Both the position numbers and the translations under genes were made by a program. Shown piece after piece: positions 8,016 through 62,384 of a stretch of 64,000 nt of DNA. The DNA is taken from assembly GCA_040954595.2 (NCBI GenBank), contig CM082577.2, positions 9,511,846 through 9,575,845 on the forward strand, in the 5' to 3' direction. This DNA comes from Balanoglossus misakiensis (Eukaryota > Animalia > Hemichordata). The notes beneath the pieces are model-generated. The model had not been told where the DNA came from and ran no database searches. It saw only the letters and a list, made by a program, of their open reading frames with translations. How positions within the stretch are numbered: the stretch's first letter is position 1; every line of letters starts with the position of its first letter.

Positions 8016-8056
<41 letters not shown>

Positions 8057-19100: not shown

Positions 19101-22100
19101 AAAAGTTTAAGATTAATCCTTTATTAATCATTCTGAAGAGATTTTCAAAAGATGTATACATTGTATGTTTAAAAAATGTTGCAAACGTTTTCAAATTTTC
19201 CTGGCGACACATAAACCTGCATCTTTACTATTTTAGATTATTTTAATGTTATCCTTTTAACATAGTTAAGGGTAAGAAAAAGGGTCTGAAAAACATCCTT
19301 ATACTGCACTGTCCACTGATAATGCAAATTTCCACCAGAAATCTAGTACCCTGAATGACAAAAAGTGATTTTATGAAAAATGTTGTATCTTGTTTATGAT
19401 CATTGAATGTGGCTGTGTTAGTGAATGGAGATCTATATTAATTGCTGTTATTTTCTCCAGAGGAACATTGCAGTTACACACATGAAATTAGCATAAGAGA
19501 AAAAATACCTGGTTGACGAAAGGCACCGGCAAACCTAAGACTCTCTTCAGGGGTACAATTGCTAGTCCTCTCTTCTTCCAGCGATTTGCACTGTGAGCAG
19601 AATGTATATCGGTAAGTCATGAAGAAATGAAAGTGCTACTGTGTGGCTGGTGAGATTTGCAAGGGTATTTCATTCAAAGTGTTCCTTTCATCATGATATG
19701 GTCTTTAAAGGAACCTGCATACCGAATATCACTGAATTGTGTGTACAGTTTTGTGACTATCCTTGCAACTGGCCATGTAAATACTATACAAGACCTATGA
19801 ACTTTAAATATGGATAAGTATGATCGCAAATATTCTATACCTTATGAAATTTCTGTTGAAGATTACAGACCTATATAAGGATACGTCGACAGTTGCAGTA
19901 ATTTGCCTACCTGTTGAACTGATCAATCTCTGCTCTACGTTTGGAATAGTCACTTCTCTTAAGGCATTCATCCCAGCATCGTCGCAGGTTTACAATATCT
20001 GGGAGTTTCTGGTACACATTATCCAAATCGCCCTCCTTGTATAAATTGATTTCGCGGATCTATCAGTGAAAAATTTCAAAGTGACCAGAATTAGCGGTTA
20101 GTTTCTTAATTCAAGATAAATAATGTGCTTCCAACAAGTAAGCTTTTGGTTTTCAAGAATACATGTTGGTGAGCAGGATCCTGATATATAGACAGTGCCT
20201 GAAAGTCTCTGCTGTTGCAAAAGTTCAGGTTAAAGCACATTATGTACACATGTGAATGCGATTGCACAAGACAAATATATGAAGATGCAGCAGCTTTAAG
20301 TCTTAATGGTTAGGTAGACATAAGATATAAAGACATCCGTTTGTTACCTTTTCGCGAGGAATGCCAGATTTGTGGGCAATAGCATCCATTATCATTTCAA
20401 TAATCGCCATAGATTTCGGGGTGCCCGCACCTCTCATTGGATTGCAGGATGCAATATTGGTTTTGCAAATCCTGCCGGATATCTTGTAGACAGGGATCTT
20501 GTAGGCGTTGTGTACGTGTGTGAATGTCTGACCCATCACCTGCAGAAAGGTTAAAGTATTCCTTGTTTAATAATCAGTGACCGTAGTGCAGTGCCAGTAT
20601 TATAAAGCTTAACTCTCGTTGTCTGAGACCCACTAGTGTGAGATAAGTATATCACAAAAAGGGCATAAGGCTTGACAGCTTCCTTCTTTCAATGACAAGA
20701 TACATTTACTGCAGATGGAAAGTGCAGATCGTAGCATACTTGATCAACATAAGACGATGTCACTTACCACATAAGAAGCACCTTCATTACAGCCAGCATT
20801 CATATATAGTTCCATGTCTAGTGCCTTCAGTAATCCATCTTGATTGCAACCAACTTTATATCTTGCTAATGTAGAATGCCTGGTACCAGTAAACTGCATG
20901 TCCTCATCTCTTCCAAATATTAAACGTACTGGTTTTCCTGATCTGAGTTACAATGTAAAAAATGTCAAATCATCAGAAATATAGGTCATTGTCAGTGGCA
21001 TAGTTACTGCTGGGTCTGCTATGGGTAGAAACACTGTTCAAAGGAAAAAAGTATCACCACCAGTTGTTATAATCCTTGCAATAATGTGCTATATTGCTTT
21101 GTTTTAAAATGGGGCCGGGTATAATGTCTGTCAACAAAGGTGGGCTCCTGAAATATAATATTCAGATTTTGAACTTGTTGGTTTTCACAAAATACAAGAC
21201 AGCTAATTTGTTTTGACGGAGTCTCCTCGGCACACAATCAAGAGATGTATCCTGAACAGTCCTGTCCGCCTAAGGTCAATGTATGTTGGCTATATGCTTT
21301 ACTCACTTTTTGGCAGCAACTGCACACATTCTTGCCAAGGTTGATGCTGTAATTTCCTTGCCTCCAAATGCTCCACCCACTCTTCGAACTTTCACAGTGA
21401 TGTTACTAGCAGAAACACCTAGGGTTTCAGCCACTTGTGTCTAGCAGATGAAAATATATAAAAACAGAGACTGGTGGCCATTTTGAATTTCGAATTTGAT
21501 ACAATTCGAGACGAAAAATTGCAACATTGAACATTGCAGTATTGAACATCGAGTTTCAAGGCCTTGTCAGCTGAAACTGTTTGCTTGTGGACGTTATTCT
21601 TGTATCGATACAGAAGGTTCCTGGTTCGAATCCAAATCAGAAAGTACTGGTTTATTTATGATCATTATACAATCCATGTACAGTGTTGATTTTAACTGAC
21701 CTGAACAAACTGTGGCCACTGGGTTGATGACAAAACCAACATCTCATCCTTCTCCCCTGGCTTGACAATGCAGCTCTGTGTCTCCATGTAGTAATGGCTC
21801 TGAGCACCAACATATACTTCACCTTCAACCACATGGTCGGATTTTTCTAATTCCAATTCAACATTTCCTTCTTCAAGGAGCAGGGGATCTCTGTAGAATG
21901 CGTTATGTTTAATTGCATTCTATAAAAGACAATGAAGTATAGTTAATACCGGAGTTATATGATATGTCACTGCCTATATCTAATATGTTTTTTACTGATA
22001 ACTTGCGTCGAATCTTATTTGTATATTCAAATTTTGAAAATACGCTAAAATGGGGTTTTCTTGATTACAGGTTACATAAATTATGTAAATGAAGTAAATT

Positions 22101-23431
22101 TAGCCTTTATAATGCATTAATCTCCAACTCATGTAACCATTCATGTACAGTACAATTTCATAACCTTTGACTATAGATGTAACAAAATGGCTGACAAGCA
22201 CACACAAACCCATACCTGTATGGTAAGAATGCAATCTTTATCCTCATAAACAACACTGACAAGTTTAACGGCTTTGCGGGCAAGTTCTGGTGTTTCTGCC
22301 AATATCCCTCCAATGGCCTGACCAACATGAACAACCTGGAGTGAAATTGCACAAGGATTACAAAAGAACATTCTGGTTAGAGATTATTGTACGAAAAATT
22401 CAGTATCGGAATAATCCCTTCTCTCTTAACATATCTTATTTATTTTGAGTTGGAAATACATGTTTTGCCATGCCATGACCCTAAAACTTCTTACATGTAT
22501 ATGTACAGGACATACTTAAATCGGGCACATTATGTGCTAATATATTGACATACTTTGTCTGTTGCAAATGTTTCTTCATCTTCATCTTGTGGATGTTGAG
22601 CAGCCCAGGTATTCTTGCCAGGAACATCAGTAGCGTCTATGTAACCATGGACACCTTCGATCGACAGTGCAGCTGATGCATCAACAGAACTGTAAAGGAG
22701 GTAAGATTACAAATATAAGGTTTAATACCAAAACTGTGCACCGATCACTCGTGGGCTTGTTGTAAATTATCAGACACTGTTATCCATACTCACATTATCT
22801 TGGCATGCGGTCGAGTACTGTACACAATTGCCATGTGAAGTTCACCTAGGAGATAAAGACAAAGATAAACATCACACAAAATATAGTAAACATGTGCATC
22901 GATCCACATGACGTCACATGGACAAAAACGATGTACTGAAGACTATTCGGTGTCCACTTGATAGTATATAAGGCTTTTCTATGTGTAAGTATAGAAACTC
23001 AATCATAGACCACATAACTATATAGCGGTCCACAGTAATCAAAGCTCATTGATGTTCAAGCTACTGTATTGATTCAGGTGTCTCATCTCTGTCATGTGAT
23101 CCTACACTCAATTTATCCTATACTATCTTTGAAGTTTGAGTCACTCAACATTACCTGGTTCTTCATGTACATCATTACAGAAGACTGCTTCACCGGTCAC
23201 CAGCTGAAATCCAGACTCATGCATCACTGGGCGTCCGATGGGATCTATGATTGGTTGCCCCTCAGGTACAGCCTAAATATTAATTTCAGGATAGTATCAT
23301 ATAATGAGATTTGCGTTGATGTATGCTTTTATGCTTCTTAAGCCATATGTAATATATGTATGGCAAATGTATGTATGTATGTATGTATGTATGTATGTAT
23401 GTATGTATGTATGTATGTATGTATGTATGTA

Positions 23432-23510
<79 letters not shown>

Positions 23511-23529
23511 ATGTATGTATGTATGTATG

Positions 23530-23560
<31 letters not shown>

Positions 23561-26500
23561 TCTATATGTGTCATGTATTTTTTCTTGTGGTTCAGCTGTA
23601 AATGAAGTATTTGACCAAGACCTACCTGATAAAGTTGAGTGCCCGTGGTCACATCTTTCTTCATGTCCATTAATGCTGATTTGTCAACACTTGAAACTGA
23701 CTGGCCCCCTGCAGAGCCAGCATGCTGGTGAAACGAAAGACGAAACCAGATGATACCATATTTCACAAACACACACAGCCAATAGTATTTGCATATAAAT
23801 ATGTTTATGGCGTTAACAGAATTTTGTGGAGCCATATCAAGATCCATGATTTGGGCAAGTCCACCCACTTGATGTATAATTTTTTTTTTCCATGTAACAC
23901 TACAGCATATTAGGTCATCATAAAACTAATATTTTTTGTGTCCGTGCAAATGGCAGTACCAATAGTGTCCAGGTAAAGCTGCAAACAGGGAATTACATTG
24001 CACTAACCATTTTATCACTGAACTCATTCTGCACCTTTAGGTAGAACTTAAAGAAGAAACTCTGAAGTAGCGATCTTCTGTATTCAACCATCCCGCCATT
24101 GGGCGATAGCGGGAGTTCTGTGCTGAGCATGGATTGTACATCCTTCAGCAAACTTTCGTTCCAGTTCCTTGTGAAAATCAGAGACAAAAAGTTTTTATAA
24201 TTTTATCTATTGTGCATTCTGAGGATGAACCACTTACTTATCTGACTATTGCAAACGGAACTAATATAGGTAATGCTTTAGAAGGTTCAGCCAAATATAG
24301 CGCACAATCTTACCTGCCAACTATTTTCTCTGAAACATCTGTTGCCAAGACAACACAAGGTCCAATTCCCCCAAAGCTGAGGTTTGCTTCCTTAATGACA
24401 CCAGTGTTTTCTTCAAGCAGAACTCTGAAGCCGGCGTTTACCACGGCCACTTCTGTGTCACGACGGTGGACTTGGTTTTTGATCTTATACCCAGCAAAGT
24501 ATTCGTCCTTCAAGCAAGAAAAGTTAGATAAATACACAAGTTGGTCAAACCAAAAATAATTACAGGAAACTTAAATTTGACAAGCGCTAGGTTAAAGTCT
24601 GACTGTCCATACCTCGTGACTTATGTCAATATGTAAAAAAGATTATAATGGGTTAGAGGAAGCTAACCTGTGATGAAATTGGAATGGTTAAGGATAATAA
24701 TATTTCATCTTGATTCAAGCAGGTTTTCCTGTACCCGGTGAAGAAGGAGTTGTCGAGCTGCAGGGTACGATTTCCTCCTACAAAAGAAAATTAAATTGTT
24801 TATACTTATGTTGAAACAATAAGTAAAATGTAAAAATTGAAAATATTTACTTTGAAGTTTTAACAGTAAAAACTTATCCAGAAAACATATTACGTTAAAG
24901 TAAATGATAGGATATGTCATATGGAAGTGGTTGATAACAAAACAGGCCTGTCTTAATTTTCGAGTTGTACAACCTGCAAATGTTATAAACAGCACCAGTG
25001 AACGTGAACAATATGCCACTAACCCCGCACAGAGGTGATAGTTACTGTAGCCCCTGCCGCCATCAATAATGGGGTGATGTCAGACAAGGGACTTGCTGAC
25101 ATTATGTGACTACCAATTCCCTGTGAAAGACAACGGATACACATGGGTGGATAGTTTACCATTTAAAACATCGAATTCACTGCACTAACAAGTAATATAC
25201 ACAGAAGCAACTGTCAATTCAAATCAGTCCATTTTCAAATAAAAACTATACTCCTGTCCACATTTGTTTAGTCATGACAATGCAAATTTGTCTCCCCCCC
25301 CCCAAGATATTAAACAAGCAGCCTTTGAGGCATCTGTGCACACTGGCCATTTAAACCAAGTTCCATTAAAACCTGATTAACGTATACATAGGCATCAAAT
25401 ACTAACAGAAACAGAACGCCATCATTTACTTTTGATGTGCCGTATTACAGGCATTGCATAAGTTTGGTTCCAGTGTTAACACAACGCTGCGACAATACAG
25501 CAAATCAAATTTGAGACGGACGCGCAACTTACAGAAGCATTCCTCAGTTGACAGTCTCCAACCTCGTGTAGCATTTTCAGAACTTCCGAATACACTTGAC
25601 TTTTAGAACCTGGCATCACAGGAAAGATGATATTACTAGTACATAAATTAACATAATTTATTTTGTATGTGTTGGTCAGGAAAGTTTCAATACTTTGTAA
25701 TTTCTAGACAGACAACTGTGACTCATCATCTCGCATTTGCACACATTCGAAATTTTGGGATATGTGTCTAATATTATGATTTACTTACTTGGTAGTTCTT
25801 CAACACGTTCCTTCAACACTTCACACATGCGACTCAGTGTAACAGACGATCCCAGGGTGATTGCGTCATCGCTGACGACAACTTGACACAGTTCCGTCAC
25901 GTGAGACACCGACAACATAGTCTTGTTTTGCATCTTTTTGATTTGGGGGTCAAATCCTGCAAGGGTTCAAGAAAACTTTCAAATTGGATGACTGCAAGTC
26001 TAATCATGTGCACCATAGGCCTAATATGGACAATTTGAAGTATCACAGTTCAATCGTTTTAAGTGCCTGGGCAAACCCTTACCAACTTCAGCATTTCCAA
26101 CGAGCAAAACTGCATCGGATATTTCCGACTTCAAGCGTAGCAGGTCCTTCAGTGTCGTCGGTCGTATCCAGGTGGTTGACTTGCTGGTAAATTTTACAAG
26201 TCCAGAATTGTAGTCATCGTTTAACTGTCGGTCATAAAAAGGGGTCAATAATAAATGTCATTCAACATACTCAGCACTGCACTGACTACACTGACAAAAC
26301 ATATTCATAACTGTTGAAGTGAGTATTGCGACAAAGTTAGCCGTCTTGTCTAAAATAGTATAGAAGCTGCCATGGTATGATATTCATTGCTAGACCTAAT
26401 TCGATGAATGTATTTATGAAAGCCTAGCATAAGAAAGCCCAGGCAGCAGTTAAAATCCCACTAAGTATATGAAAAAGATGTGAAGAGTTTTGTAAAGCAA

Positions 26501-29500
26501 TCCTGAACACGACCCATCAAAACACTGACTAGGCCTTTGACGTGTTCGTTGTAATTACCTGCAATTCGGAGGGAAATACAGGTTCTTGTGTTGGGTCGTA
26601 CGGTGCAAAATCACTTGGTTGGAAAAGTCCAGACACCATCTGAAAAGAAGTTGATGAATGTTAGAGAGAGAGGCCATAATGCATATAGGCACTATGCTTA
26701 ATAATAATTATTTCTGTTGTGCTACACTTAACAATAGTTTCGAAGTTCACAAAAATTGTAGACATAACTATAAGTGGCACGCGTGCACATTTCCTGAGAC
26801 AACGTTCCACCATCTAACATGCAACTGTCGTAGCTCCACCGAACATTTTCTTGTGATTCTGTCATCATACTCACATCGCTGCCTTCTCCTTCCAATCCCT
26901 GGCATGCTGATGGGTTTCCACAGCAACCATTCTGGGTAAAAACGGGTTAATATCATGAATACAATCAGAGAATACGTCCCAGAGGCCGACGCAGCAATCT
27001 TTAAAGCCGTGTAACACATGTTACTGCAAACATAACAATTGTAACCTATGTAGTATAATTATTATACCTTCTGTGAATTGCACCAAAATTGTGGCCAGGT
27101 GCCTTTTCAGATAATTCGTGCTTGAGTATTCTACCCGAATAATAAACACACTATTACTTTCAGCTTCCATGAAATATTAATAGTAATAAAAATATAACAA
27201 TATCGATTACTTCGGTGAATGTTTGCAATCCTTCCAATATCGGTCGATACCCAGTGCATCGACACAGATTTCCAGTCAGGGAATGCTGGATGTCAGCAAA
27301 GTGTGGTTGCGGATTATTTCGTAGTAGTGTGTACATGGACATCACCATTCCGGGAGTACAGAATCCACACTGTAGCCCATGGGCCTTTGCAAGACGTTCC
27401 TGTTTGGGAAAACAACAAAAAACGACCAATTTATGTCATACATGTATCAATTGACAGAAAGGTATATGAAGGAAAACTTATATAGAGTGTAACCTCAAAT
27501 TCACATTCATTATAAGTAAAAATTAATATATTCAAAGTCACATAAATAACAGTTTTAGATATTCTGTACCCACCTGCACTGGATGGAGTTTAGTTCTTGT
27601 TGAACCGATTCCTTCCACTGTAGTCACGGCCATGCCATGTACAGCACAGATTGGAGTGTAGCAGGCATTGATAGCGTGGTGTCTTAATGACAGCATTGTC
27701 ATAGGAAAACCAGCAAACTAATAAGTCTGTATATTTATGTATGACTTTTCGTCATTTTCCAATTATGAACTTTTGTATTTCAGCTAAATAAACTTATTGT
27801 ATGTAGTCAGTAAATTTCTGCAACATTTCGTAATAGCCTATGAGGGAGGAAACTTATTTTAAAAAGAGACATCAAAACATTGTCGTCGCACAGTACGTTT
27901 GAAACCAATTATTGTTCTACACAATATTGCAGTGCAATACTTCATTTTGTATATTTTTGCTACTTTCTTGTTATTCACAAATTAAACATTCGAGTAATTG
28001 ATGTTCCTGCATTAAAACGTCAATAATGATCCAATACTATAGATTCGTTTATTCTTTCGGTCAAAGTTCGCAGACGTAGTTCAAGATCTAATTGAAGTGG
28101 ATACAGTATCTTCTCTTGTAGGTTGTCATATCTTGATAGCATGACAGTACATGCGCCGCAGCCGCCTTCACCACAGCTGTATTTACTTCCTTTCAAATGT
28201 ACTGTGACGTCGTCAAGGAAACTGTCCGTGGGCATATCTTTCCCATGCCACGTCACCATTTGCCCCCGTATTATTACATCTAAGGTTCAGGCAGATGGGT
28301 CGATAACAATCACTATATCGTAGACGTTGCTTAAAACGTCGAAATGAATTTAAGCAAAACTGTGAGATTTCGAGGTTACACGTCTAATTATGACATCTTT
28401 ACATGAAAAGTAGTGACATTTATCACAAAGCTGTCCTGCTCAAAATGCAACACACGACTACTGATATTTTGGGGGAATGGGCATTTCTTTTCTTCTGTTT
28501 CACCCCTTTACCGACTTCCAGTCACCCTCCTTCATCAATGTCAAGAAAGAACATATAGCCTAAACATTGCCCAGTCTGTGTATTCAAAGGGTATGCTAAG
28601 TCTGTCATTCGACCAATCACTTGTCTGTGCTTTCAGACTGAGTCATTTGACTTGTAGACAGGAACAAGATAGCCTGATAGCCGATGTAATGTTTCGTCGA
28701 GTCCAAAGGTGGTTTATGCAAATTTCTCAAGAAATGAGCTGAAACTGTTCTAATGTTTACTTAATCTGGCTGTATCTCTGTAACGACCTTCAAGTTTTTT
28801 TGTTTTCTTTCGACATATGTTGACTTCTTTCTGTTCAGGTTTCCTATCATTTTATAATGAATTTGTCTCCATATCTGTACCAGGCACCAAAATAGCAAAA
28901 TCCCTTGTCGTAAGTACGATTTTCATTGGTAATTAGCCGACTCGAACTCATTACGTCGACAACACCGTCTAGCCGCTGTGCCGCATGCGACTACTAGGCC
29001 GTGTTAAACCCCCAAAACTTGGTCAAACGTGCCGAGTAAGAAACACACGAAAAAACACAATCTAATCACGGTCATTTTCGCATCATTTTTCCAATCACGA
29101 GGAGCAAGGATACACTTTCTTCTGAGGTATGATAACAGAGACACCTCAGGATCCACATCGTGGTCCACTACCTGTGGAAAAGTGTTGATACGTCAATGAT
29201 TAGATAAATATATAAACTTTTTCACTTTTCTTAGATTATTCAGATTTGCAATAGTGCACTAGCATCTCAATTTTGTTGATAAAAACACAATGAGAAATCA
29301 AAACGAAATTTGTCCAACCTCATGAACAGATATGGCTGCCAAATATCCAATGTGGTATTTAATATTATGCAAATTAATCATAAACATTCATAAGCATTAA
29401 AGGCAACCAGCGAGGCAACCATAAACTCTGGCTACACCTTCAAACGGCACCCCTGCTTGCCGGAATGCTAATTTTGGCAATGCAGCTTTAATATGGCGGT

Positions 29501-30651
29501 GAGGGAGCTGCTGTTCCCAGGTTGTTATGACCACTGAAGGGGACACGCCCCTCGCCTGCTCGAATCTGCATTTCCACAGCGAGTTGGCTTGACCCAAGGT
29601 TGTATCGAGGGGATACCAAGGAGTTTGGCTGCACGGTGGTATATAAGTGGCCGTCGTGTTATTATAGGCTGCACCTGATCACATCGCCCCTTCCTCGTCT
29701 GCCATGCAGCGCTACCTTGACGATAAGATCACCATGGGCTCTGTTGGAGCTTACACTAGCAAGACACGATGTCAGATAGAATGGCTCAAAATACTCGACA
29801 TCAATCACATATTCGCATGACAGCCATTCTGTACTACCAAGCTGCTGCCGAGTGTTTGATTGATTGAAATCCAAGACAGATATGTTATCACCCGCGCCTT
29901 CGCTGATAAAGCTGCTCACGTCATTGTATTTGTCTGTAAGGATTGATTGCTGATTATTTTATTTGTAAACCATTTCGAAATTGCTTTGTGTCGAATATAA
30001 AAAAACGTTCTTCGTTCTTTGCACAACGCCAATTTCATCCAGCTACACCTCCCTAAATAAATTGAGTTGTCCCTAGGTGAAACAGCTGGTGCGCAAGGTG
30101 ACCCAATTCTCTAAACCATGGCCACCTTTGGTGAAATGTTCCGCGAAAAAAAAACACATGTACATACACTGTGCATTAAATCGTTGTGTCCGAATTACTC
30201 CTTCGGGTTTCGCTGGCATGATCAGTGCGTAGTAGATACGTGTGTGGTAGGCTATAGGCTCTACAAGACTGTGTGACACGACACAGACTATCCGCACGCA
30301 AAAAACAGGCATAGCCTTGACCTGCAGTACTGCAGCAAGCAGGCTCAAAATGCCGGTAGAATGGCTATAAGCTCTATAAGCCCACACGCGACTGTTTGCA
30401 GACATGTCCGTACGCAATCTGATAAAAAAATCCCGTGCAGAGATATGTGTCGGTTGTTTCGCTTGCATCGTACTGGACTTTACTTCCGCGGCCATCGACT
30501 ACAATACGCACGCTTCGAGCGAAACGTGGCATTTAAATCAGATTGATTCGGTACGTTGTCGGCGCAGCCCTGAGCCTGGCCGACCATGACTACGGAAATG
30601 GTCTTAACTCACCTTCCTTCCGTTCACGAAGAAGACAAACGCGTCACCCAT
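16138..30651 (-). CDS. Xanthine dehydrogenase/aldehyde oxidase-family molybdo-flavoenzyme, copy B (multi-exon, apparently intact)
   Basis: Exon 1 30651-30613 ([13 protein letters not shown]), exon 2 29171-29114, exon 3 28201-28105, exon 4 27682-27574, next exon from 27399. Exon-for-exon paralogue of copy A, with the same 2Fe-2S, FAD and Moco motifs. Terminal exon 16185-16138 reads [15 protein letters not shown]. Confidence 0.95.
23369..23558. repeat. Compound (TATG)n(TG)n(TATG)n microsatellite
   Basis: Seen directly. Confidence 0.95.
27683..29113 (-). other. Two adjacent U12-type GT-AG introns flanking exon 3 of copy B
   Basis: Intron 2 (29113-28202): GTATCCTTG ... TTTCCTTGAC ... CAG. Intron 3 (28104-27683): GTATCCACTT ... 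TTTTCCTATGAC ... AAG. Confidence 0.8.
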
Positions 30652-31336
30652 TACAACTCCAGCATCTGAGGTTGAACGAGCAATGATTAAGTGCAGGATA
30701 AGGGGCTGAACAGAATTAAAGGGGAGAGGGCTGGTACAATGTTGGGGGGGGGGGCTCCCGAATCGACTATAATTTGAAATTCAAAATGTTCTCTGTGTTA
30801 GCTCTATGGAGAATAATTACAGTAGAGATTTTTTATGCTTTCATCTTCATATTTTTAAGATGTTGGTATTGAAACAAAAGCATATTATACCCCACTGGCC
30901 AAAAGGACTTTGTACCTTTTCTGGGAAATACTGAACTAACTAAATTCACCTATATCGAGGGAATTATGGGAACGGTGTAGAAAGGAATTTGAGTTCGTTC
31001 ACATGAATCATGACCCTCCCCAATTGGTAAAATATGACCCTTCCCTTGTCAACTCACAGGTGTGACAGGTACAGGTCACTATAACAGTGACGTAATTCTT
31101 CCAGCACTGGAGCAGCTGTGGCCGGTGCCGTTAGAGCGCCCTCAACATGTTCTGGATGTCATTTGTTCATTCTCGAGCTCCAATCATATGGTTTATATAG
31201 TATCGCACAGGTCGGATGCAGTGCGGAATAATCGTTGTGATGTTGGCGGGCGTTAGTTGTTTGCGCTTGCAAAATACCGGCCCTATAAACCAGCAACGAG
31301 AGTCATTATCAAACGCCCCTGGCTCTTCGTTGTGGT

Positions 31337-31443
31337 TAGTCTGGTTCCCTGCCCCAATCCCACCGCTGGCTGCGCTACGCTAAAGGGAAAGGGTTAGGGT
31401 TAGGGTTAGGCCAGCGGTGGGATTGGGGCAGGGAACCAGACTA
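31337..31443. mobile_element. 107-bp MITE with perfect 34-bp TIRs, 9-bp TSD and internal telomeric repeats
   Basis: TIR TAGTCTGGTTCCCTGCCCCAATCCCACCGCTGGC (31337-31370) and its exact reverse complement (31410-31443). CGTTGTGGT flanks both sides (31328-31336, 31444-31452). GGGTTAGGGTTAGGGTTAGG lies in the loop. Confidence 0.9.
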
Positions 31444-32480
31444 CGTTGTGGTTAGTGCATAGAGGTTGTAGCAAGTCTCTCAAAGAGGGAAGGACCCCCA
31501 ACAAAAACAACATAAACACTCAACAAATAATGAAATGCGAAAATGAGTTGTGACGGTGTTACTTGGCAAATTGGCCATATATTTTGACAATCTTGAGGTA
31601 TGCATTGTATATTGACCCACGTAAATGAGTACTAAAGCGGACCTTTGGGCTGGTATGAAATTGGCTTGGTAACTTTACTGATCATGACATGTATATGTTC
31701 AGAACTTTGTACAGGGCCCTGGTAATATACGAAAACAACTACCAAATAAGAGCAATAAAACGCATCCGGGATGCACCCGGATGAAGCTATAAGGATACCG
31801 AGACTCGTATTACTGTTGTATCTAAGACGAAAACAACTACTAAATTAAAGCTGCAAGCAGCGTTGGCGGGGCCCAATGCAAGGTAATGTGCAAAGCAGAA
31901 ATCGAAATCATACAGTTGCACTTCAGAAGTGTTACTTAACATTACTTAGTCTAGTAAATGACTGCTTAGGTAATAAATGCAGTGGGACAGCATGAAGCAA
32001 TGTAATCTGAGGAATCACATAAACTGAACAATAGTGATTGGGTGTAAGGTGATTGCAGGGCTTATATGAATTGGAAAAATGTTACCCATCCTCACAATTC
32101 CCAGCCAGGGGTATCAGGCTTGACGTTAGTTTTGGAAGCAAAGCGGACAAAATACGACTGTGTGAAAAATCTTAGTTCTTACAAATTTTTGGTTCTCGCA
32201 GAAAACGGTTTTCATCATGTTTTAGCAAAATCCAATATAGCCACTACAAAGTTCGACTAGTCACTATGTACTAAGAAAAAAGATGAATTCCATCTATATC
32301 AATGATGGTGGCCGATCGGTCGCAGGCCTTGCATGGGCCCCAATTAAAATCTTTGAAATGTTGAAAGCACGTCCAGGATTTTGAGGCTATCCCAAATTTA
32401 TGTAGTGAAGACCAGAGCGTGGTCAAAACATCCTGGTTATGATCCGGTTGCAGGGATAAAGTTACTGGGATGCATTGGGA

Positions 32481-32486
32481 TATAAA
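32481..32486 (+). promoter_or_regulatory. TATA box of the Dae4-like gene
   Basis: TATAAA 79 nt upstream of an ATG in strong Kozak context (CACCATGG). Confidence 0.6.
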
Positions 32487-32559
32487 GCGCGCGACAGATA
32501 GAGAAGCGCACACATCGACAGGGTAGCAGTGCACTGTTGGCTATCGCGGCTTTGTCACC

Positions 32560-33296
32560 ATGGACTTCAAGATTTTTTTCCTACTGTTTGCATTCATGGC
32601 AACCTCAGAAGGTAAGTCGTTTAAAGGCCCATGAGCTGCAACATTAGGATAACTATCGTAATTATCTAAGCCTCATATATGTAACAGCGATAAATCGGCT
32701 GATGTCGACGTGATCAGCGAAAACGGTTTATGAAATGTCAGCCTATAGGCTGACATTTCATAAACCGTTTAGGCTTTCGTATAATATAACGGTCACCAAT
32801 TGGTATTTTTAGACATAGCACCAGTAACTATACCAAACATTGTATCCAAATGTAATCCATTGAGACATTACAATTTCATTTTTCGTTGCAATACTTCAGT
32901 TATTTTAAAATTGCGGGAAAGATATTTTTTTATTCTTTCTTTCAATGTTTTCATGAAAAAAAGTTTTATCTGTACATACTAAATGTCATTTAATAGACAT
33001 AGCATATTTTTATCCAGTTAAATTGCATTGGTGACCGTGTACTAACTCTGACTATCTGCAGCATGGTGGTTCAAGGGTGGTGGGCGTGGACATGAAACAA
33101 GCAACTCGAACGACTGGCCAAGCTTTTCAACCATGTGGAGTAACTATCCACGTTATAACGGCTACTCATCTCACCAGCTCATTCAGAAGTGTAAGCTCCG
33201 TAGCTGGTTGGACGTACCTGGTCTCAATACATGTGCCATTCGTGTCAGTAATTCCTTGATCAGTTCTGGTAAGTATTGGTTTATTCACTGTATGTA

Positions 33297-33349
<53 letters not shown>

Positions 33350-34176
33350 ACGTATGTATGTATGTATGTATGTATGTATGTATGTATGTATGTATGTATG
33401 TATGTATGTATGTATGTATGTATGTATGTATGTATGTATGTATGTATGTATGTATGTATGTATGAATGTCACGTAAGACATTAAAAATAATGGGAAAATT
33501 ATTTGTTCTAGGAAAGAATTTGAATGACTTAACTGGGTGTAACTGGTCTGGTACCACCAATACCGATGGAGACAAGTACATTATTCGCGTTAACACCATG
33601 AATTGCTACCTGGTGCAGCAAGGGAAATCTTACATTGAGGGGGACAGCGAGCAGGACTTCCGGGTAAGAAACAAATAAATGAAATGAGCTCATTTAGTTT
33701 AATGAACTTGGGTCAAGATGGGTTTGTTTGTTTGTTTTTTTTTTTGGGGGGGGGGGGGGTCCGACATCGGTGAATGTGTAGATAGTGATCACTTGGTGTT
33801 ATGACTTGAGAAAGGTTGGTTGATCGGTAGTCTGGATTCCAGACTATTTGATCGGCGACTGACTTTTGACGGGTGATTGGGTTGGTTGGTGGGTAGGTGG
33901 GTGGGTGGGTGTGTAGGTGGATGGATGATCTCCCACGCCCCCCCCCCCCCATTCATCAATTGGTTGGCTGGACAAGCCGGCCATGCATCGAGTCACACAT
34001 GGCATATGACACGTGCACTCGACATTGCTTCATTTCAGAGTCACAATGGTGTAATTGTGTTCCGAAGCTGTAGCTTCAGTGATGCTACTGGTCACGTGGA
34101 TTTGTGGAATGGATACTCATGTGCTGGGAACTGTTACTTCCACGAATGCTCAGACATTCGACTGTTCGAGTGGTAA
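32560..34176 (+). CDS. Secreted Tae4-family peptidoglycan amidase (domesticated amidase effector, Dae4-like), 182 aa, 4 exons
   Basis: Exons 32560-32611, 33062-33268, 33512-33663 and 34039-34176; all GT-AG and phase-compatible (549 nt). Signal peptide MDFKIFFLLFAFMATSEA. Motifs WPSFSTMWSNYP, NTCAIRVSNSL (catalytic Cys), DGDKYIIRVNTM and GVIVF..SDATGHVDLWNG.SCAGNCYF (catalytic His) match bacterial Tae4 motifs as recalled (NACPIRMSYVL, DKKRYMFRVKDM, GIIIF...DATGHVTLWNG). Confidence 0.9.
32721..32770. repeat. Perfect 50-bp palindrome in intron 1 of the Dae4-like gene
   Basis: AAACGGTTTATGAAATGTCAGCCTA followed directly by its reverse complement TAGGCTGACATTTCATAAACCGTTT. Confidence 0.95.
33290..33464. 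repeat. Compound (TG)n/(TATG)n microsatellite in intron 2 of the Dae4-like gene
   Basis: Seen directly. Confidence 0.95.
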
Positions 34177-34509
34177 ACTAACCCGACAGCCTGGCATGGT
34201 TTAGACACAGAAAGCTTTTGTTATGATTTCCATTATTCCACTTTTACTGTCGTTTAACAAAAACGTGGTAGCATATACATAAGTGGTTACTAAATATCCC
34301 AGACAATTGTTTTGATATTGCATGTGTTCTGTATTGCTAGTTCTATGTTCTGCCAGAATTCTAGAATATGATGACACTCTAAAACAAGTTTTCCTCAAAA
34401 TTTTCACAAAACGTACATTTATCATGTTCGGTTTTCCGTCTAATCGTCGAATACTCATTAGTTGTATGAATTCGACTATTAATTCAGGTTTGAATATTAC
34501 GTAACGTAC

Positions 34510-34612
34510 CAATCTGATTAAAATCAGATGTAGGGAACGGCGACTTGGGTTTTTTTATGCTGTAAAAAAATCCCCAAGTCGCCGTTCCCTACATATGATT
34601 TTAATCAGATTG
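34510..34612. mobile_element. Hairpin MITE (CAATCTG...CAGATTG) with perfect 9-bp TSD
   Basis: Near-perfect inverted repeat flanked by GTAACGTAC on both sides (34501-34509, 34613-34621). Same family as 4415-4539. Confidence 0.85.
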
Positions 34613-37600
34613 GTAACGTACAGTCCTGTGTAATCATAAATGAAAGAGAGAAATAAAATTGGAAATAAAAATTGCAAAAAATAAATTTCCCCTTTCGTGT
34701 ACCATCTCAGACATTTAAAACGTAGTTTAATGTCATGTCACAACACCAAATTGCCAAGCTGTGAACGACGGTAGATGTGTCAAATACAAATTAGTTTCAG
34801 CCAGCCACCAGTACGTAAAATTCTTTATGTGAGTGTGAATTGGTGATTTTTGATGGAATTTCTGGCGTTCTCACAACTCTTTTCCAACACCAAATTGATG
34901 TCATGACATAGTGCTCAAGCAATGTCTCAACCTGTTTCACCATCCAGTCCACAAGAAATGGAAGCTTTGGAATACGTGTGATGTGATTTAAGATGGCATT
35001 TGCAGAAAATGTACTTTTCTTTACTATTCAACGTTTCCTGTTTTTGCTCTGTAGTTTGATTGTGTTGCAGCTAATAAAGCAAATACGCGTAATCCTATGT
35101 ACGTGTTGACCCAGGTGTATTTTGTTTCTGACTAGTTGAAACGCGCGCGATCTTGTTCTGACTTTGCCTACATAAATACATATGTAGAAACTCACCAAAA
35201 ACCTGGTTGCAAAACCTCTCTTCGTCACGTCTCTTTGTTCGTATACAAACTGTGAGTGTAGCGCAGCGCCCCCATTGAGCAAGAACGAGTCTAGTCTTTG
35301 TTTTTTTGCCACTGTCATGTGACTGACTTATTCCGCGTCTCTGCTGTAGTCAGATGCGCGCCACGTTTTATCATCCGGAGTAGGTCAATTTCGCGAACCT
35401 CTGAGTGCGGGGTCGCTGACACATCCACTCGCTCAACTCCTGGAAATTTTACAATGAAAACTTGTCTGGGTCCAGAAGGGTTAAAAAAAGTGGCTGGGTC
35501 AATCATAGAGCATCTCCATTGATGTCTTAGTTGTTTGAATTCCTAAAAATATATTAAAAGCGCGACTTTGAAGGTGTGTGGTCGGAAAGGTTGGTCTTTC
35601 CAGACACACATGCCCATCGTCGAGGAATGTTGCTGGCTACAAAACTTCATGGGACGGCGACACAGTCGCCCGTCCTCTAAAATTCAGGTCCTACATTTTA
35701 CCACACATACACGGAAACAGAGAGACCTAGTGGACGACAATCATTCTTACCTTTATATGGGTGTCCTTGTAAGCTTTACACGTTTTCAACGGCTCACCAT
35801 TACGCTTGTTGATCAGCCTTTTTCTGTCACAGTGTTACCCCCACCTGTCTTATCAGTTGCTAATCCAGAATACTAGCTACCGAATTTCCCATTAAGCACC
35901 TGCTAACGACTTAATCTGTGTGCCCCATCCACGGATTTAGTGGATTAAGTAAACATCGGTCAGTTCTCACTTGGTAAACCAGTACTCGCTTGATTATTAT
36001 GGTAGTCCGAGAGGTTGGCCCGCACACGATACACAAATAATCCCTCAGCAGAAAATGAAATAACCACAACAACGCCAAAAATGAGCGACTGCAATAAACG
36101 TCCTTGACGGACCAATCACAGTCTCGTACCGATTGATACTCGATCACATGTATATTCAAGGGTGGCCACAAAAAGTTACACTTTTATACAAAGAACATCT
36201 GTGATGTCACGAGATATGAAAAAAACTCCAGACAGGCCATATGTATTCGTTTTCTACCAAGTACACGTTCGACTGCAAACCCCCATAGATCGACATCGTT
36301 CATGTATCAAGTGCATTTTCGCAATCTGATCGTGAATAATCAGATGTGCAGAATTTTGATCAATCGCCTCCTTGCTTGTTGTGTGTTTTCGTCACGGCCT
36401 TGTCTTTATATACCTCGCTACTGGCTAAGCATGATAAGGGAAAAGACGTGAAATGAAACAACGTAGAAAAAATGTAATCGCATGAAGACGAAAAGGACAC
36501 TTTCAGAGGCAGATGGATGTGACAATTATCGGAACTCGACAGCATGATCGAGAATGGACACAATTAAAGCGTCAGAGGTCAAACGGCATTTATTAATATT
36601 TTTTAATAAATGATATTGGCATACCTAGCAATATTCCCGGTTGCTCCATTTCTACATTTCATAGTATGAATTCTTTGAGCTCATACAATATGCAATGCTT
36701 GACTACAAATTGAATTACACCCCCGTTGAATTATATGAACGATTGCCCTTATAATTAAGATTGATTGACAAGACACCTGTGACAAACATATTTTGTTCTC
36801 CTAGAACGGAAAGTGTTCAACCGTGACGTCACAAGTCTGGGTTACTTCACAGTGCATACGACGCTTGACTCCCGTGTTAGTAAGTTACAGCCCCGCTCTT
36901 CTGCTAAAAAGATTACTTTGTGCGTTGGCTTTTTTCTCTTCGTTTTCATTTCAAGAGCAAATTATGGTTTCCGTACGAGTTTCACTGGACGCCTTGTCTT
37001 CAAGTTCTGCTTCAAAGAATCGTGAATCTCAGAAAATATGTAGATGCGGGGGACAACATCCTTACAGTCCAGTAACTCCCAAATAGAATAAATTCATTTC
37101 TTCGCCCGTTAGTCAACGAAGTTCACGACACACATACGCCAATTTCACATGTAACGTGTCAATGAATGTGTAATAAACGCCGCCTGATGTCATTGTGGTT
37201 TCGAGCGCGTGGTTTCCATAGAGACAGTGGACAACGTGTTGTTCGTGTCGAAACGATCAATCAAGTGCGCTTTGGCAGCGCAGCTCAGCGCCCTTCCAAT
37301 TATTCCCGAGGTTGTTTTCACAACTTTTTTACTCGAAAACAGGGAGGACGCTCCGCCTTGTAATAAACAACATCTTCCTTGCTTGCTTTCGAACAATAAA
37401 CCGAACTGTATTGACAAAGGCATGGGGTAATTGGTCACCATGATTACTTGGCCGTTGCACTTTGCCCCTTTTCCAATTGGGGTCATCGGGTTCGAGATGT
37501 TCTAAATTTTCACCAGTAAAATGCAACAAACCACCGCACGGGAGTCCTGTAAGAAACCTAGTTTCTTTCCATACAGTTGTTTGTGATGTTCGAAATATGT

Positions 37601-38322
37601 TCAAAAACCGGTAGTCACAACTCAACTCACGCTCTGTATATGCTTATAACTTAACCCACGGTACAATTTTTAATTAACTAAAATTAAATTTAAATGTTGG
37701 AAATACTAGTATTCACACGTTGTGACTTGTGTCCACATATACGGGGCACGAGTTGGGCGTTACGACCGGCCATTTCGGAGTATTGCAATAACTTTGAAGC
37801 CGAGGACATGGAAAATCCCATAAAACAGAAAATGATCAGAATAGTGTCAGAAGCGAGCGATTTTTCGCCTTTAATCTGTGAAGCTTGAATTGACTCGAAG
37901 AACACTCTCTTTGATAAGTATGTCATTCGTTCAGAGATGGACGGGTAGAACTTGCGATAATCACCGCAGCGGGGACGCACCCACCTGTTGAGTTGGCATT
38001 CCAATGAACTTCAGGTCGTGACGTAAGACGGCTCTGGTGTAACACGGTAGCCGTCGCGCTGTCAGTACGCGGATGACGCGTGTTTATCGTGGGAAGTGAA
38101 AACAGTGGAGTGGCTAATAGCAGGGGCGCGCATAATCTCGCTGCCAGATCTAACTCCAGTGATCGTCCGAAGCGGGTCGGTATGGGGCGTGTGTCTTCTA
38201 AGGGCTGTTGAGTTCGACATATCACAAGAGGTTTGATGCTCTTCATCAGAGAGACTTAGTCCAGTGAAGTACAACTTGTCGCGAACAACTTTGTGACCAG
38301 TGGTTCGGTGATCAACTTCAAG

Positions 38323-39859
38323 ATGTCGCAGTCGACAACGTGCGCCAGTCAGGTTCTACTGAAAGCCGTGTCGGCCGGCCGGCCGCGACAGGTGCGGCTG
38401 CTTCTGGAATCGGGCGTCTGCACCGAAGTTGCGGACGAGTGCGGACAGACGGCGCTGATACGCGCCTGCTTCATCGAGAACGTGAAGAACCAGTACAACA
38501 TCACGAAGATGCTGCTGAAGGCCGGGGCGATCGTCAGCAAGAGCGACATAGTCGGTCGGAACGCCCTGCACTGGGCATGCCTCTACGGCCGCCAGAGGGT
38601 GGTCCAGCAGCTTCTGGAGTACAGCGACCTGGAACTGGACTTGAATAAAAGTGACATGAACGGTTGCACTGCCCTGTTCAACGCCGCGTCGTCTGGAAGC
38701 GCGGCCACGGTGAAGATGATGGTGGATTGCCTGGTAAGGTATTCCCTCAGCGTGGACGTTCCCAACTTCGACGGACTGACGCCCCTCATGCAAGCTCTGA
38801 GACTCGGCCACGACGTCTGTGCCAGCATCCTATTGCATCAGGGGAAAGCGTCGACGACGAGGCGCGACAAAGACTTTCTGAGCGCTCGGGACTGGGCGCA
38901 GAAAACGAACAACTCGGGGAGGAAGAAGAACGCGAACGCGGACGGGGAACGACCCAAGCCCACTTTCCCGCCAATCATGTCCCAGACGGTGGCGAATATC
39001 ATCAGGTACCGGGAGAATCGCGCCCGACAGCGGATCAACTCAGACAGCGACGAGGAGCATTCGGACTCCGATAATCCGTTTGGACTGGCCGATGTGTCCG
39101 AGGCGGTCGACAGTCTGAGCAGCGGGGGATTGTCGTCCAGTCTATCAAGAAGTACCCCGGACATCATCAGCAAGACCATCGAATCGGACCTTGACCAGAC
39201 GGTCATATGTGATGACGGCGATGGCATTCTGTGGTCGAGCGATGAAGACGAGCAAACGCAGTCGACCACCGTCAAAGCCAGACCGTGTCACGGTCAGCTG
39301 AGGCGACATCACGATCTTCCCAAAATCTATTCACTGTACGAGGAACAACTGGCGGGGTCGTTTCGACCGGGGTATCTGAAACGACACAGAAAGCGCGACC
39401 ATGACTCGTCGAATTCGCAGCCTTCGCCCGACTGCAAACTGGAGTGCTGCAACGACGTGGTCAGTCCGACAATCTTGGTGTCGGACGAAATGATCCAGAA
39501 AATCGTTACGGCGAACAGAAGAGCGAGGGAAAAGAAAACTGCCGGGGCGCCAAAGAAGGACGACTATGAAAGTAAGTTTGAATCGCAGTAGGTTTTTTGA
39601 TAAATTAGACGTAGGCCAGAGGCTGATATGACACATATGCAGCAGCAGGGAAACCGATAAAGGCGTATGTCATGGTCACGTCCCCGGACTTATCTTCAGT
39701 AAACACCTGACTGTCGTTTGCCAAAACCCTTCCACTTATTTTTCACACGCACTCACACATAAACGCTCTTCCCACTCTCTCTCTCTATCTCTTTGTCTTT
39801 CTCTGTTTCTCTGTCTTTTAATGTGTCACTGTGTGTCTCTCTCCGTGTCACTGTGTCTT

Positions 39860-45384: not shown

Positions 45385-45420
45385 GCTGATTGGTCCATTA
45401 GTTTAAAGATGGCGGCGCCC
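45385..45420 (+). promoter_or_regulatory. NPRL3 promoter elements: reverse CCAAT box and YY1-type AAGATGGCGGC motif
   Basis: CTGATTGGT at about 45386-45394 and AAGATGGCGGC at 45406-45416, just upstream of the start codon. Confidence 0.5.
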
Positions 45421-45467
45421 ATGAAATTATACATCGCTGGACTCGAACATGTACACCAGTAAAAGCC

Positions 45468-51400: not shown

Positions 51401-52105
51401 AACGTCTCAGTGTCTTGAGTGTGCCTGCAGCTCGCAACGATGAGGATCTCAGGCTGTTTGAGAGGTCAGTCAGCATTTCTACGATTCTTGATTGTCATAT
51501 TGGTTTTTTATATTAACCCTTTCACCCCCAGTTCCCTCTATATAGAGGTAGAGCCTTACCATAAAAAAACAATGGATTTTGACTGAACCACGATAGTTGT
51601 GTACTCTTGCAATAGGTACGGTAATTGAATTAACAGGTGTGGCACCAGTTTATTCCTTAACTTGTTCATATTTAAATGTACAGTCACAATCAGAGGTGAT
51701 GATGATATGTTTTGTGTAGACCCACCAGTATGGACCATTCTAAGTTTGAAAGTAAAATCACTAAAAAAAATTACAAAAATTGGCAGCTATTAGGGCTTTA
51801 ATGTCTATTGAGAGTGAATATCTGTAGACTAGGGTTTCTGGTGAAGTACGGGTAACCTCATACTTTAAAATCAAGATAGTGCAAGAGTCTTGGTCACACC
51901 CACATTGAATTGATCTGAATGGCATGCTGTCTTTTACCCCAGACTCTGTCCCTACTTCCGCGGGAAACACCACCTGGAAGAGATCATGTACTACGAGAAT
52001 CTGCGGAGATCGGATCTGCTGATGCTTCTGGACAAATTCCGGGATGTCCTCATCACGTGCACCCACCAAGACGCCGCCACCATCACCTACAAGGAGTTTC
52101 TCTGA
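45468..52105 (+). CDS. NPRL3: GATOR1 complex subunit NPRL3, 13 coding exons
   Basis: Exons 45468-45582, 46420-46510, 47338-47470, 47619-47678, 47974-48203, 48650-48752, 49279-49467, 49855-49961, 50090-50216, 50413-50466, 50699-50840, 51248-51464, 51943-52105. Motifs [70 protein letters not shown] and [13 protein letters not shown]. Confidence 0.97.
48279..48626. mobile_element. TTAA-flanked MITE in an NPRL3 intron
   Basis: TTAA-AGCTCCATTAGCTGTAACTTTT ... AAAAGTTACAGCTAATGTCCCT-TTAA imperfect TIRs. A related degenerate element lies at about 58567-58912. Confidence 0.7.
50884..51085. mobile_element. Truncated copy of the AGGGACAAAGTCT-TIR element
   Basis: About 200 nt highly similar to 5205-5405, starting TTAAAGGGACAAAGTCTCTC. 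Confidence 0.75.
51513..51600. mobile_element. Short (~90 bp) TTAACCC-type repeat, piggyBac-like MITE; other copies at about 52205-52296 and 60538-60632
   Basis: Shared core ATGGTTTGG(G)TCCAAATCCATTGTT (here as a degenerate reverse complement) and CCCTTTCAC/GTGAAAGGG-type ends. Confidence 0.5.
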
Positions 52106-53024: not shown

Positions 53025-53291
53025 TTATCTTCCCCTCAAGGTGCGCTTTTTGGGCGGGGTGACCTCCGTAAAAGTTTGGGAAAATCCCTGCGACTGGTGC
53101 AGTTTCTGCATCTCCTGCACGCTCGGAAGTCGATCGCGGGGGATGAGATGTCGAGTGCTGCGTAGCTCTTTCTTCAAGGGAAGTTGCGCCACGCTGCGAC
53201 CAGTGCCGCTGTACGCTGCCTTGGATGCCAGGTGCTTCCTTGGGACCATCCCGCCCGTCGATTTGCGTGCTGTCTGGATAGTTCGTGCCAT
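53025..53291 (-). CDS. Histone H3 N-terminal-tail-like protein without histone fold (88 aa)
   Basis: [31 protein letters not shown] versus canonical H3 [31 protein letters not shown]. Open to a TAA after [11 protein letters not shown]. Pyrimidine-rich acceptor (…TTCTTCTGCTGCAG) at 53330-53329 suggests a 5' UTR intron. Minus-strand AATAAA at about 52750-52745. Pseudogene status cannot be excluded. Confidence 0.7.
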   Translation of the reverse strand: [88 protein letters not shown]

Positions 53292-56260: not shown

Positions 56261-56954
56261 TTCCTTCAGTTAGAGGTTACTGAGGGGAACACACAAAGAA
56301 AAAAAAAGGTCAATCGATACTACAACTAAACAAGTACGATATCTCAACCCCAAGAAAACATACGAAAGGCAAAACGCGGGGAAAATAACAGCACCCTGGT
56401 AAAAATGGCAAACATAGCGTGTTTTGGTCATCCACATACGGACTGTCAGTTTGTCTTTGAGGTTGCAGTCAATCGATGGCTGAATTGAGTTTGCCGCTAC
56501 AAAAACAAAGCCCACACCACTTCGGGTTAAATTTTGACTACATTTTACTCCAATTTTATCTCGACCAAAATAAACGCCATTGTAACAATTCAAAAATTGA
56601 CAATAAAGTTGCTAGATGGCATTTTAAAGATTAGATTCCAAATCTGCAATTAAGCGACAATATCAACAATATTGGATACATTGTCTTAACAAATATTTGA
56701 AAAAAAAACGGTTTTTACCAGTTGGGATATATTTCCCTCCAAGTCAGATTTTGAAATATACATCATATATATACTAATTGCGCCATGTAATGAACATAAT
56801 TATATTAGATATGATTGTTTATGTATGACAACATACATTTAAAATGTTAAATATTAAGATTTTGTAGAACAATGGGGACTAGAATTACCTTGTTGCACCG
56901 AAATATTTGCTCCAACAGTCAACGGGTCTTGGTGTAAAAACCGCGAATGATGGC

Positions 56955-62364: not shown

Positions 62365-62384
62365 CTGCAATGGATAATCGGATA

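What the first reader, a model, noticed from the sequence alone, without database searches (positions are those of the whole stretch)
32560..34176. Bacterial T6SS toxin domesticated as a secreted animal gene (Tae4-derived Dae4-like amidase)
Seen: four GT-AG exons splice to a 182-aa protein with a signal peptide, an upstream TATA box and the Cys (NTCAIRVS) / His (DATGHVDLWNG) pair. Established: Tae4 proteins are NlpC/P60-fold peptidoglycan DL-endopeptidases delivered by type VI secretion, and horizontally acquired dae genes are known in scattered animals as antibacterial factors. Inference: this is an intron-containing antibacterial enzyme of bacterial origin. It sits among ordinary animal genes, so it is not contamination. 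No Tai4 immunity gene was seen, as expected for a host without peptidoglycan.
Basis: partly seen in the sequence, partly recalled or inferred. Interest (0 to 1): 0.8.

Follow-up and report, generated by a model that had tools for sequence, protein, structure and literature searches.

The report
Acorn-worm copy of bacteria-derived antibacterial enzyme
An intact four-exon gene in what is likely an acorn-worm genome encodes a predicted secreted cell-wall-cutting enzyme of bacterial ancestry; it is one more member of an already described animal family (Dae4) whose sea-anemone member is known to kill bacteria.

Summary
The gene is real. Four GT-AG exons (32560-34176) give one open 182-aa frame with an N-terminal hydrophobic stretch, Cys75 and His156. 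Exon 4 alone passes the Pfam Tae4 cut-off. The product is 60% identical end to end to a 182-aa Ptychodera flava protein and 39% to Nematostella nvDae4, whose tested catalytic Cys63 aligns with Cys75. Neighbours are spliced animal genes, so this is not contamination; the host is likely an acorn worm. All animal copies tested (acorn worms, lancelets, sea anemones, a snail) form one supported clade, and read-through gene models suggest introns 2 and 3 sit at the same places in anemones and lancelets. That favours one old transfer, not a new one. Splicing, expression and activity of this copy are untested; no RNA run was listed. Verdict: new member of the known Dae4 family, low to moderate interest.

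The parts
32481..32486 (+). TATA-like hexamer, candidate core promoter (weak evidence)
   Evidence: 79 nt upstream of the ATG; start site not mapped
32560..32611 (+). Exon 1 coding part: ATG and predicted signal peptide (17 codons + 1 nt)
   Evidence: hydropathy; like N-terminus in Ptychodera P0001; GTCACCATGG
32612..33061 (+). Intron 1, phase 1, 450 nt, GT-AG; holds a 60-nt near-perfect palindrome at 32716-32775
33062..33268 (+). Exon 2: N-terminal subdomain with catalytic Cys75 (33232-33234)
33269..33511 (+). Intron 2, phase 1, 243 nt, mostly GT/GTAT microsatellite; position likely shared with anemone and lancelet genes
   Evidence: shared position inferred from P0097, P0020, P0018
33512..33663 (+). 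Exon 3: Cys96, Cys118 and the YIIRV motif
33664..34038 (+). Intron 3, phase 0, 375 nt; position likely shared with anemone and lancelet genes
   Evidence: P0097, P0052, P0015
34039..34176 (+). Exon 4: His156 (34093-34095), Asp158 (34099-34101), Cys148/165/169/174, stop
   Evidence: Pfam PF14113 33 bits, cut-off 27, E 7e-8
34517..34685 (+). Candidate polyadenylation hexamers at 34517, 34652, 34664, 34680
   Evidence: not tested with reads

Best explanation
This is an intact, intron-containing animal dae4 gene, likely from an acorn worm, that is predicted to encode a secreted cysteine amidase that would cut bacterial peptidoglycan outside the animal's cells. Shown: the open four-exon frame, Tae4-family membership, the conserved Cys75, His156 and Asp158, and nesting in one clade with acorn-worm, lancelet, anemone and snail copies. 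Inferred: the signal peptide routes it to mucus, gut lumen or coelomic fluid in place of T6SS injection; His156, oriented by Asp158 as in Serratia Ssp1, activates Cys75 to hydrolyse the gamma-D-Glu-mDAP bond of the stem peptide; exposed Gram-positive walls would be lysed directly, Gram-negative walls only once the outer membrane is breached; no immunity protein is needed because the host has no peptidoglycan. The gene most likely descends from one old bacterium-to-eukaryote transfer that had gained introns before anemones and deuterostomes split, followed by many losses and local duplications.
For: Pfam Tae4 above cut-off. 60% identity over all 182 aa to Ptychodera flava P0001; 39% to LOC5507694 (nvDae4), whose Cys63 aligns with Cys75. 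nvDae4 cleaves E. coli and S. epidermidis peptidoglycan, kills B. subtilis, needs Cys63 and is induced by cGAMP through NF-kB (bioRxiv 2021.05.13.443009 section 8; PMC8713801 passages). Model of the orthologue P0001 (pLDDT 89) matches only Tae4/Ssp1 structures at E<=0.001, 11 of 289 listed matches, best TM 0.70/0.79. Asp at His+2 in 27 of 27 animal rows and 126 of 166 other rows that the motif search caught (16 of 209 rows not caught); Ssp1 uses Cys50-His133-Asp135 (PMC3852654 passages). Animal clade support 99/86 (81 rows), 97/89 (35 rows), 100/100 (27 rows without the snail). Intron 2 and 3 positions match read-through or mis-spliced models from an anemone-like contig, Actinia and Branchiostoma. 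Neighbours are multi-exon XDH/AOX genes, an ankyrin ORF, NPRL3 and MPG.
Against: No transcript or protein evidence for this copy. The fold was of the orthologue, not of this protein. The Asp137 that Salmonella Tae4 needs (PMC3695027) is Gly167 here; the reading depends on Asp158 standing in. The nvDae4 assays used a vector signal, not the native one. The bond cut by nvDae4 was not stated in the passages read. Inside the animal clade the tree does not follow the species tree: acorn worms join three anemone rows at 95/84 in one tree, though a deuterostome clade is not rejected (p-AU 0.34). Intron sharing is read from protein models, not from DNA. The searches were seeded with an animal profile, which inflates the score gap to bacteria, and only 150 of 1,199 hits were listed. 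Immune versus digestive use cannot be told from sequence.
Confidence: 0.8

Rival explanations
1. Same enzyme, but used mainly to digest bacteria taken in as food (acorn worms are deposit and suspension feeders; own knowledge) or to trim peptidoglycan, not as an induced immune effector.
For: Sequence cannot separate the two uses. A simple scan for two NF-kB-like patterns on the + strand of 29000-34200 found 1 site, at 30749, 1.8 kb upstream, which is no support for immune control.
Against: The one tested orthologue is induced by an immune signal and depends on NF-kB. The two roles are not exclusive.
Confidence: 0.25
2. The donor was a stand-alone Tae4-family wall hydrolase of an environmental bacterium, not a T6SS-delivered toxin, so 'domesticated T6SS toxin' names the family's best-known members and not the actual ancestor.
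For: Tai4 lay next to the gene in 5 of 5 proteobacterial-clade loci and T6SS core genes in 1 of these, but neither in 0 of 14 myxococcal-type and 0 of 3 Bacteroidota loci (115 of 212 candidate ORFs from 22 of 80 loci scanned). Many relatives are fused to PG-binding, SH3 or kringle domains. The unnamed row next to the animals (P0109, 98/85) has a weak SH3 hit (E 0.004, under cut-off). The Tai4-linked group nests elsewhere.
Against: No named bacterial sister group is resolved; P0109 moves away in the smaller tree. Orphan effectors and immunity proteins that Pfam misses would look the same in a 2-kb scan. Ssp1, a shown T6SS substrate, has the same triad type.
Confidence: 0.4
3. Patchy presence reflects transfer between animals of an already intron-bearing gene, or several transfers from one bacterial lineage, not one pre-bilaterian transfer with losses.
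For: Named hits come only from sea anemones, acorn worms, lancelets and one snail; 39-48% identity between this protein and anemone copies; acorn worms group with anemones at 95/84.
Against: Deuterostome monophyly is not rejected (p-AU 0.34) and anemone monophyly is not rejected (p-AU 0.52). Shared intron positions argue against separate bacterial transfers.
Confidence: 0.1
4. A silent pseudogene, a mis-called splice, or bacterial contamination.
For: No RNA evidence in hand; this exact protein was not listed in the three protein searches.
Against: Open frame, consensus splice sites, all catalytic residues kept, full-length 182-aa orthologue at 60%; introns, microsatellites and flanking spliced animal genes with no GC break.
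Confidence: 0.05

Closest known systems
nvDae4 of Nematostella vectensis (LOC5507694; Margolis et al. 2021, PMC8713801 / bioRxiv 2021.05.13.443009)
   Same: Same clade, 39% identity over 158 columns, catalytic Cys63 = Cys75 here, His-x-Asp kept, single Tae4 domain behind a signal sequence.
   Different: This copy keeps Cys96, Cys118 and Cys169, which the nvDae4 model lacks, and has an extra acorn-worm-specific Cys61; Gly instead of Asn at His+11. Activity and induction are shown for nvDae4 only.
Unannotated acorn-worm and lancelet dae4 paralogues (Ptychodera flava P0001, P0002, P0004, P0023; Glandiceps P0003; Saccoglossus P0011; Branchiostoma spp.)
   Same: 60% identity and equal length with P0001; clade of this protein with P0001 and P0002 at 96/95; acorn-worm clade 100/97.
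   Different: Not identical to any listed protein; single copy in this 64-kb window. That dae4 genes were reported in acorn worms, lancelets, anemones and Monosiga with a shared intron by Chou et al. 2015 (Nature) is recalled; the paper was not read here.
Bacterial Tae4 effectors: Serratia Ssp1 (PDB 4BI3), Salmonella and Enterobacter Tae4 (4HFF, 4HFK/4HFL), Agrobacterium Tae4 (6IJF)
   Same: Same fold (orthologue model, TM 0.59-0.71 by query length), Cys/His dyad, and the Cys-x3-Cys pair (Cys165/169 = Salmonella Cys135/139).
   Different: Has introns and a predicted signal peptide, no Tai4 and no T6SS. Third residue is Ssp1-like Asp at His+2; the Salmonella/Enterobacter Asp at His+11 is Gly.
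Tick Dae2 (bioRxiv 2020.04.10.036376)
   Same: Same logic: a bacterial amidase-effector gene used by an animal as a secreted antibacterial enzyme (passages).
   Different: Different amidase family (Tae2) and a separate transfer.

Membership tests
Tae4/Dae4 amidase family (Pfam PF14113) | Profile match above the curated cut-off | tested here: met
   Exon 4 alone 33 bits vs cut-off 27; orthologue P0001 71.6 bits
Tae4/Dae4 amidase family (Pfam PF14113) | Catalytic Cys and His in the N-x-C and G-H motifs | tested here: met
   Cys75 and His156 align with nvDae4 Cys63 and with the Salmonella Tae4 motifs
Tae4/Dae4 amidase family (Pfam PF14113) | NlpC/P60-type Tae4 fold | tested here: met
   Tested on the 60%-identical orthologue as stand-in: pLDDT 89, all 11 matches at E<=0.001 are Tae4 or Ssp1
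Tae4/Dae4 amidase family (Pfam PF14113) | Third, acidic triad residue | tested here: met
   Met in the Ssp1 form (Asp158 at His+2); the Salmonella form (Asp at His+11) is not met, Gly167
Animal Dae4 | Spliceosomal introns and eukaryotic genomic setting | tested here: met
   Three GT-AG introns; flanking XDH/AOX, NPRL3, MPG; splicing itself not seen in RNA
Animal Dae4 | Groups with known animal dae4 genes | tested here: met
   99/86, 97/89, 100/100
Animal Dae4 | N-terminal secretion signal | tested here: inconclusive
   Hydropathy and homology only; no predictor or experiment
Animal Dae4 | Peptidoglycan cleavage and bacterial killing | not testable with these tools
   Shown for nvDae4 only
Bacterial T6SS effector Tae4 | Adjacent Tai4 immunity gene and T6SS delivery | tested here: not met
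   No Tai4 or T6SS Pfam hit in 279 window ORFs of 62 aa or more; expected in an animal
Bacterial T6SS effector Tae4 | Donor lineage was itself a T6SS effector | tested here: inconclusive
   No resolved named bacterial sister; 0 of 17 non-proteobacterial-type loci with Tai4 or T6SS hits

The most novel reading that the evidence does not exclude
The intron-bearing dae4 gene moved sideways between animals (sea anemones and deuterostomes) after capture from a non-T6SS bacterial wall hydrolase, which would explain the near-50% identity, the shared introns, the very patchy distribution and the acorn-worm plus anemone grouping in one tree.
Probability: 0.07. Interest if true: 0.75.

Novelty: new member of a known kind. 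Interest (0 to 1): 0.27.

Why it matters
It adds an intact, probably deuterostome copy of an antibacterial enzyme of bacterial ancestry that vertebrates seem not to have. No functional study of a deuterostome Dae4 turned up in the library searches, so it is a usable test case for whether the anemone result holds across some 600 million years (age from own knowledge). The Ssp1-type triad gives a concrete prediction (Asp158 needed; possibly both donor and acceptor stems cut, as for Ssp1). The shared introns help date the transfer. None of this changes the known picture.

Tried and rejected
No whole genome is held for this window, so copy number and synteny beyond 64 kb were not tested. No RNA holder was listed for 32400-34700; this is no evidence either way, and no reads were laid. 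The metagenome scan gave 53 loci, all at 25-39% identity in their best segment, and none looked like an animal gene, so introns of other animals could not be read from DNA. The AU test on the 81-row tree did not finish and was run on 27- and 35-row sets. Monosiga P0068 does not join the animal clade, but joining it is not rejected (p-AU 0.41), so its place is open. 31 of 239 proteins were left out of the first tree for short coverage, Monosiga among them; it was added to the later trees. A 180-aa splice variant was rejected for its weaker donor and loss of conserved residues. A PRS7_OB hit on exon 3 (E 0.04, under cut-off) was set aside as noise. Contamination was rejected. Earlier scan findings: nothing by words, sequence or place. 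Chou et al. 2015 did not appear as a held paper in any listing and was not read; its supplements would bear directly on whether the shared introns and the acorn-worm copies are already in print.

Full report
Observation. The window holds an open four-exon frame at 32560-32611, 33062-33268, 33512-33663 and 34039-34176, with intron phases 1, 1, 0, giving 182 aa. Each intron starts GTAAG and ends in AG. Enumerating GT and AG choices round the six boundaries gave 2 long products, 182 and 180 aa; the 182-aa form uses the consensus donor. tblastn with 25 animal homologues hits exons 2, 3 and 4 and shows no second copy in the window. The TATAAA at 32481 is present but weak evidence. The signal peptide is supported by hydropathy and by the orthologue's N-terminus, not by a predictor.

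Family. Exon 4 scores 33 bits against Pfam Tae4, cut-off 27; exons 2 and 3 alone give no Tae4 hit. Exon 2 retrieved a 182-aa Ptychodera flava protein, P0001, 60% identical to the spliced product from first to last residue. Further named hits are from Ptychodera, Glandiceps, Saccoglossus, Branchiostoma, Exaiptasia, Actinia, Actinostola, Nematostella and Monosiga and Littorina. A profile of 15 animal rows matches six PDB sequences at E<=0.001: four labelled 'putative cytoplasmic protein' from entries whose titles are Tae4 structures, one Tae4 and one Ssp1. The joined protein could not be folded, so P0001 was folded as stand-in (62-row alignment, pLDDT 89); its 11 matches at E<=0.001 are all Tae4 or Ssp1, and other NlpC/P60 enzymes follow at E>0.1.

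Catalytic anatomy. LOC5507694, the gene that Margolis et al. call nvDae4, is in the cluster of P0024. Its model P0264 has Cys at position 63, the residue mutated in that paper, and it aligns with Cys75 here; the paralogue P0263 has Tyr there, as the paper describes. Salmonella Tae4 needs Cys44, His126 and Asp137 (PMC3695027, passages). Asp137 corresponds to Gly167 here. Serratia Ssp1 instead uses Asp at His+2 (Asp135) and cuts both donor and acceptor stems (PMC3852654, passages). This protein has Asp158 at His+2, as do 27 of 27 animal rows and 126 of 166 other rows caught by the motif search; 16 of 209 rows were not caught. The triad is therefore likely Cys75-His156-Asp158. Cys165/Cys169 match the bacterial Cys-x3-Cys pair. 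Cys96 and Cys118 are lost together in 5 anemone rows of the 25 aligned, while Saccoglossus lacks only Cys96; a disulfide there is an inference.

Setting. Of 279 ORFs of 62 aa or more, Pfam hits define two tandem multi-exon xanthine dehydrogenase/aldehyde oxidase genes on the minus strand upstream, then an ankyrin ORF, NPRL3 exons and MPG downstream. GC is 40.6% in the bin holding the gene, within the window's 37-54%. No Tai4 was found. The host is inferred to be an acorn worm from this gene's tree position alone (96/95 with two Ptychodera rows, 100/97 for acorn worms); neighbours were not used for taxonomy.

History. A FastTree of 209 domain rows put 26 acorn-worm, lancelet, anemone and unnamed rows in one clade at 97 (31 of 239 proteins left out for short coverage). 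The careful tree of 81 rows (20 animal or animal-like, Monosiga, 17 other database rows, 43 of 78 named bacterial loci) gives animals with Littorina 99/86; smaller sets give 97/89 and, without Littorina, 100/100. Littorina is a long branch, so its place is less sure. Order inside the clade is unstable: acorn worms join three anemone rows at 95/84, but deuterostome and anemone clades are not rejected (p-AU 0.34 and 0.52). Monosiga is outside, and inclusion is not rejected (p-AU 0.41).

Introns. No animal DNA could be fetched, but gene-caller read-throughs mark exon ends. P0097 and P0052, both listed on an ENA contig of 22,747 bases and matching Exaiptasia P0012 at 54 of 57 and 42 of 45 residues, begin and end their homology in the same alignment columns as this gene's exon 3 and exon 4, with Val after the donor side and Gln before the acceptor side, as here. 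Branchiostoma P0015 carries a 20-aa insertion starting with Val at the intron 3 position. Actinia P0020 and Branchiostoma P0018 jump from the residue at the intron 2 position to the start of another copy. These are protein-level inferences, but they agree and favour one transfer older than the anemone-deuterostome split. I recall that Chou et al. 2015 reported dae4 in these lineages with a shared intron; I did not read it, and the review passage seen (PMC4832377) only states that effector genes were transferred to eukaryotes.

Donor. The best-scoring named bacterial relatives are mostly Myxococcota and Bacteroidota at about 30-40% identity (best 80 of 217 kept). None is a supported sister of the animal clade. 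In 22 loci scanned within about 2 kb (115 of 212 candidate ORFs), Tai4 was adjacent in 5 of 5 proteobacterial-clade loci, T6SS core genes in 1, and neither in the other 17. A T6SS ancestor is thus possible but not shown.

Mechanism. Shown: frame, family, residues, clade, setting. Inferred: secretion; thiolate attack by Cys75 on the gamma-D-Glu-mDAP bond, the bond Tae4 cuts; lysis of exposed walls, as for nvDae4 on B. subtilis; poor access to Gram-negative walls without help, as stated for Dae enzymes (bioRxiv 2020.04.10.036376, passages). nvDae4 was secreted with a vector signal in that study, so native secretion is untested even there.

Papers seen: bioRxiv 2021.05.13.443009 (passages and section 8), PMC8713801, PMC4832377, PMC3695027, PMC3852654, PMC4729200 and bioRxiv 2020.04.10.036376 (passages only); no supplements. 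PMC4729200's main text has no 'amidase' or 'peptidoglycan'; its supplements were not read. Nine library searches were run; the only dae4 study listed was the Nematostella one, and most subscription papers are not held.

Verdict. Observation confirmed, interpretation supported with two qualifications. New member of a known kind; interest 0.27.

Noticed in passing
window 1783-13689 and 17085-28286 (-): Two tandem multi-exon xanthine dehydrogenase / aldehyde oxidase genes with the same domain order.
   Followed up: partly
window 45402-52102 (+) and 61979-62398 (-): NPRL3 exons and MPG about 10 kb apart, converging. The same pair flanks the vertebrate alpha-globin cluster (recalled, not checked), which would be an old microsynteny.
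   Followed up: no
window 38260-39591 (+): Single long ankyrin-repeat ORF of 443 codons; resembles ANKRD34/63-type genes by recall only.
   Followed up: no
window 53025-53366 (-) and 56087-56269 (-): A degenerate histone H3-like N-terminus that loses frame, with no Pfam hit, and a Lys/Ala-rich histone H1-like tail, both between NPRL3 and MPG; labels are by eye.
   Followed up: partly
window 32716-32775 and 34507-34615: A 60-nt near-perfect palindrome in intron 1 and a hairpin with 50-nt arms just 3' of the gene; possibly small transposon remnants.
   Followed up: partly
proteins P0075, P0186, P0261, P0262 (unnamed): Kringle-Tae4 fusions, two of them on one 29,770-base contig length; they lie outside the animal clade and may mark another eukaryotic capture.
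   Followed up: partly
protein P0114 cluster (28 unnamed members), P0192: Tae4-family proteins with an N-terminal membrane-like helix on very short contigs, grouping with gut Bacteroidota/Lachnospiraceae rows; origin not determined.
   Followed up: no
proteins P0105, P0238 (Littorina saxatilis): Two snail copies with hydrophobic N-termini, divergent, falling in or beside the animal clade.
   Followed up: partly
protein P0023 (Ptychodera flava): 387-aa model fusing DUF6973 to a Tae4 domain; may be a real fusion or a merged gene model.
   Followed up: no
L078:6346-6852, L088:6335-6856: In two gut Bacteroidota a WG-repeat gene directly follows the Tae4-family gene, a candidate non-Tai4 immunity protein.
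   Followed up: no
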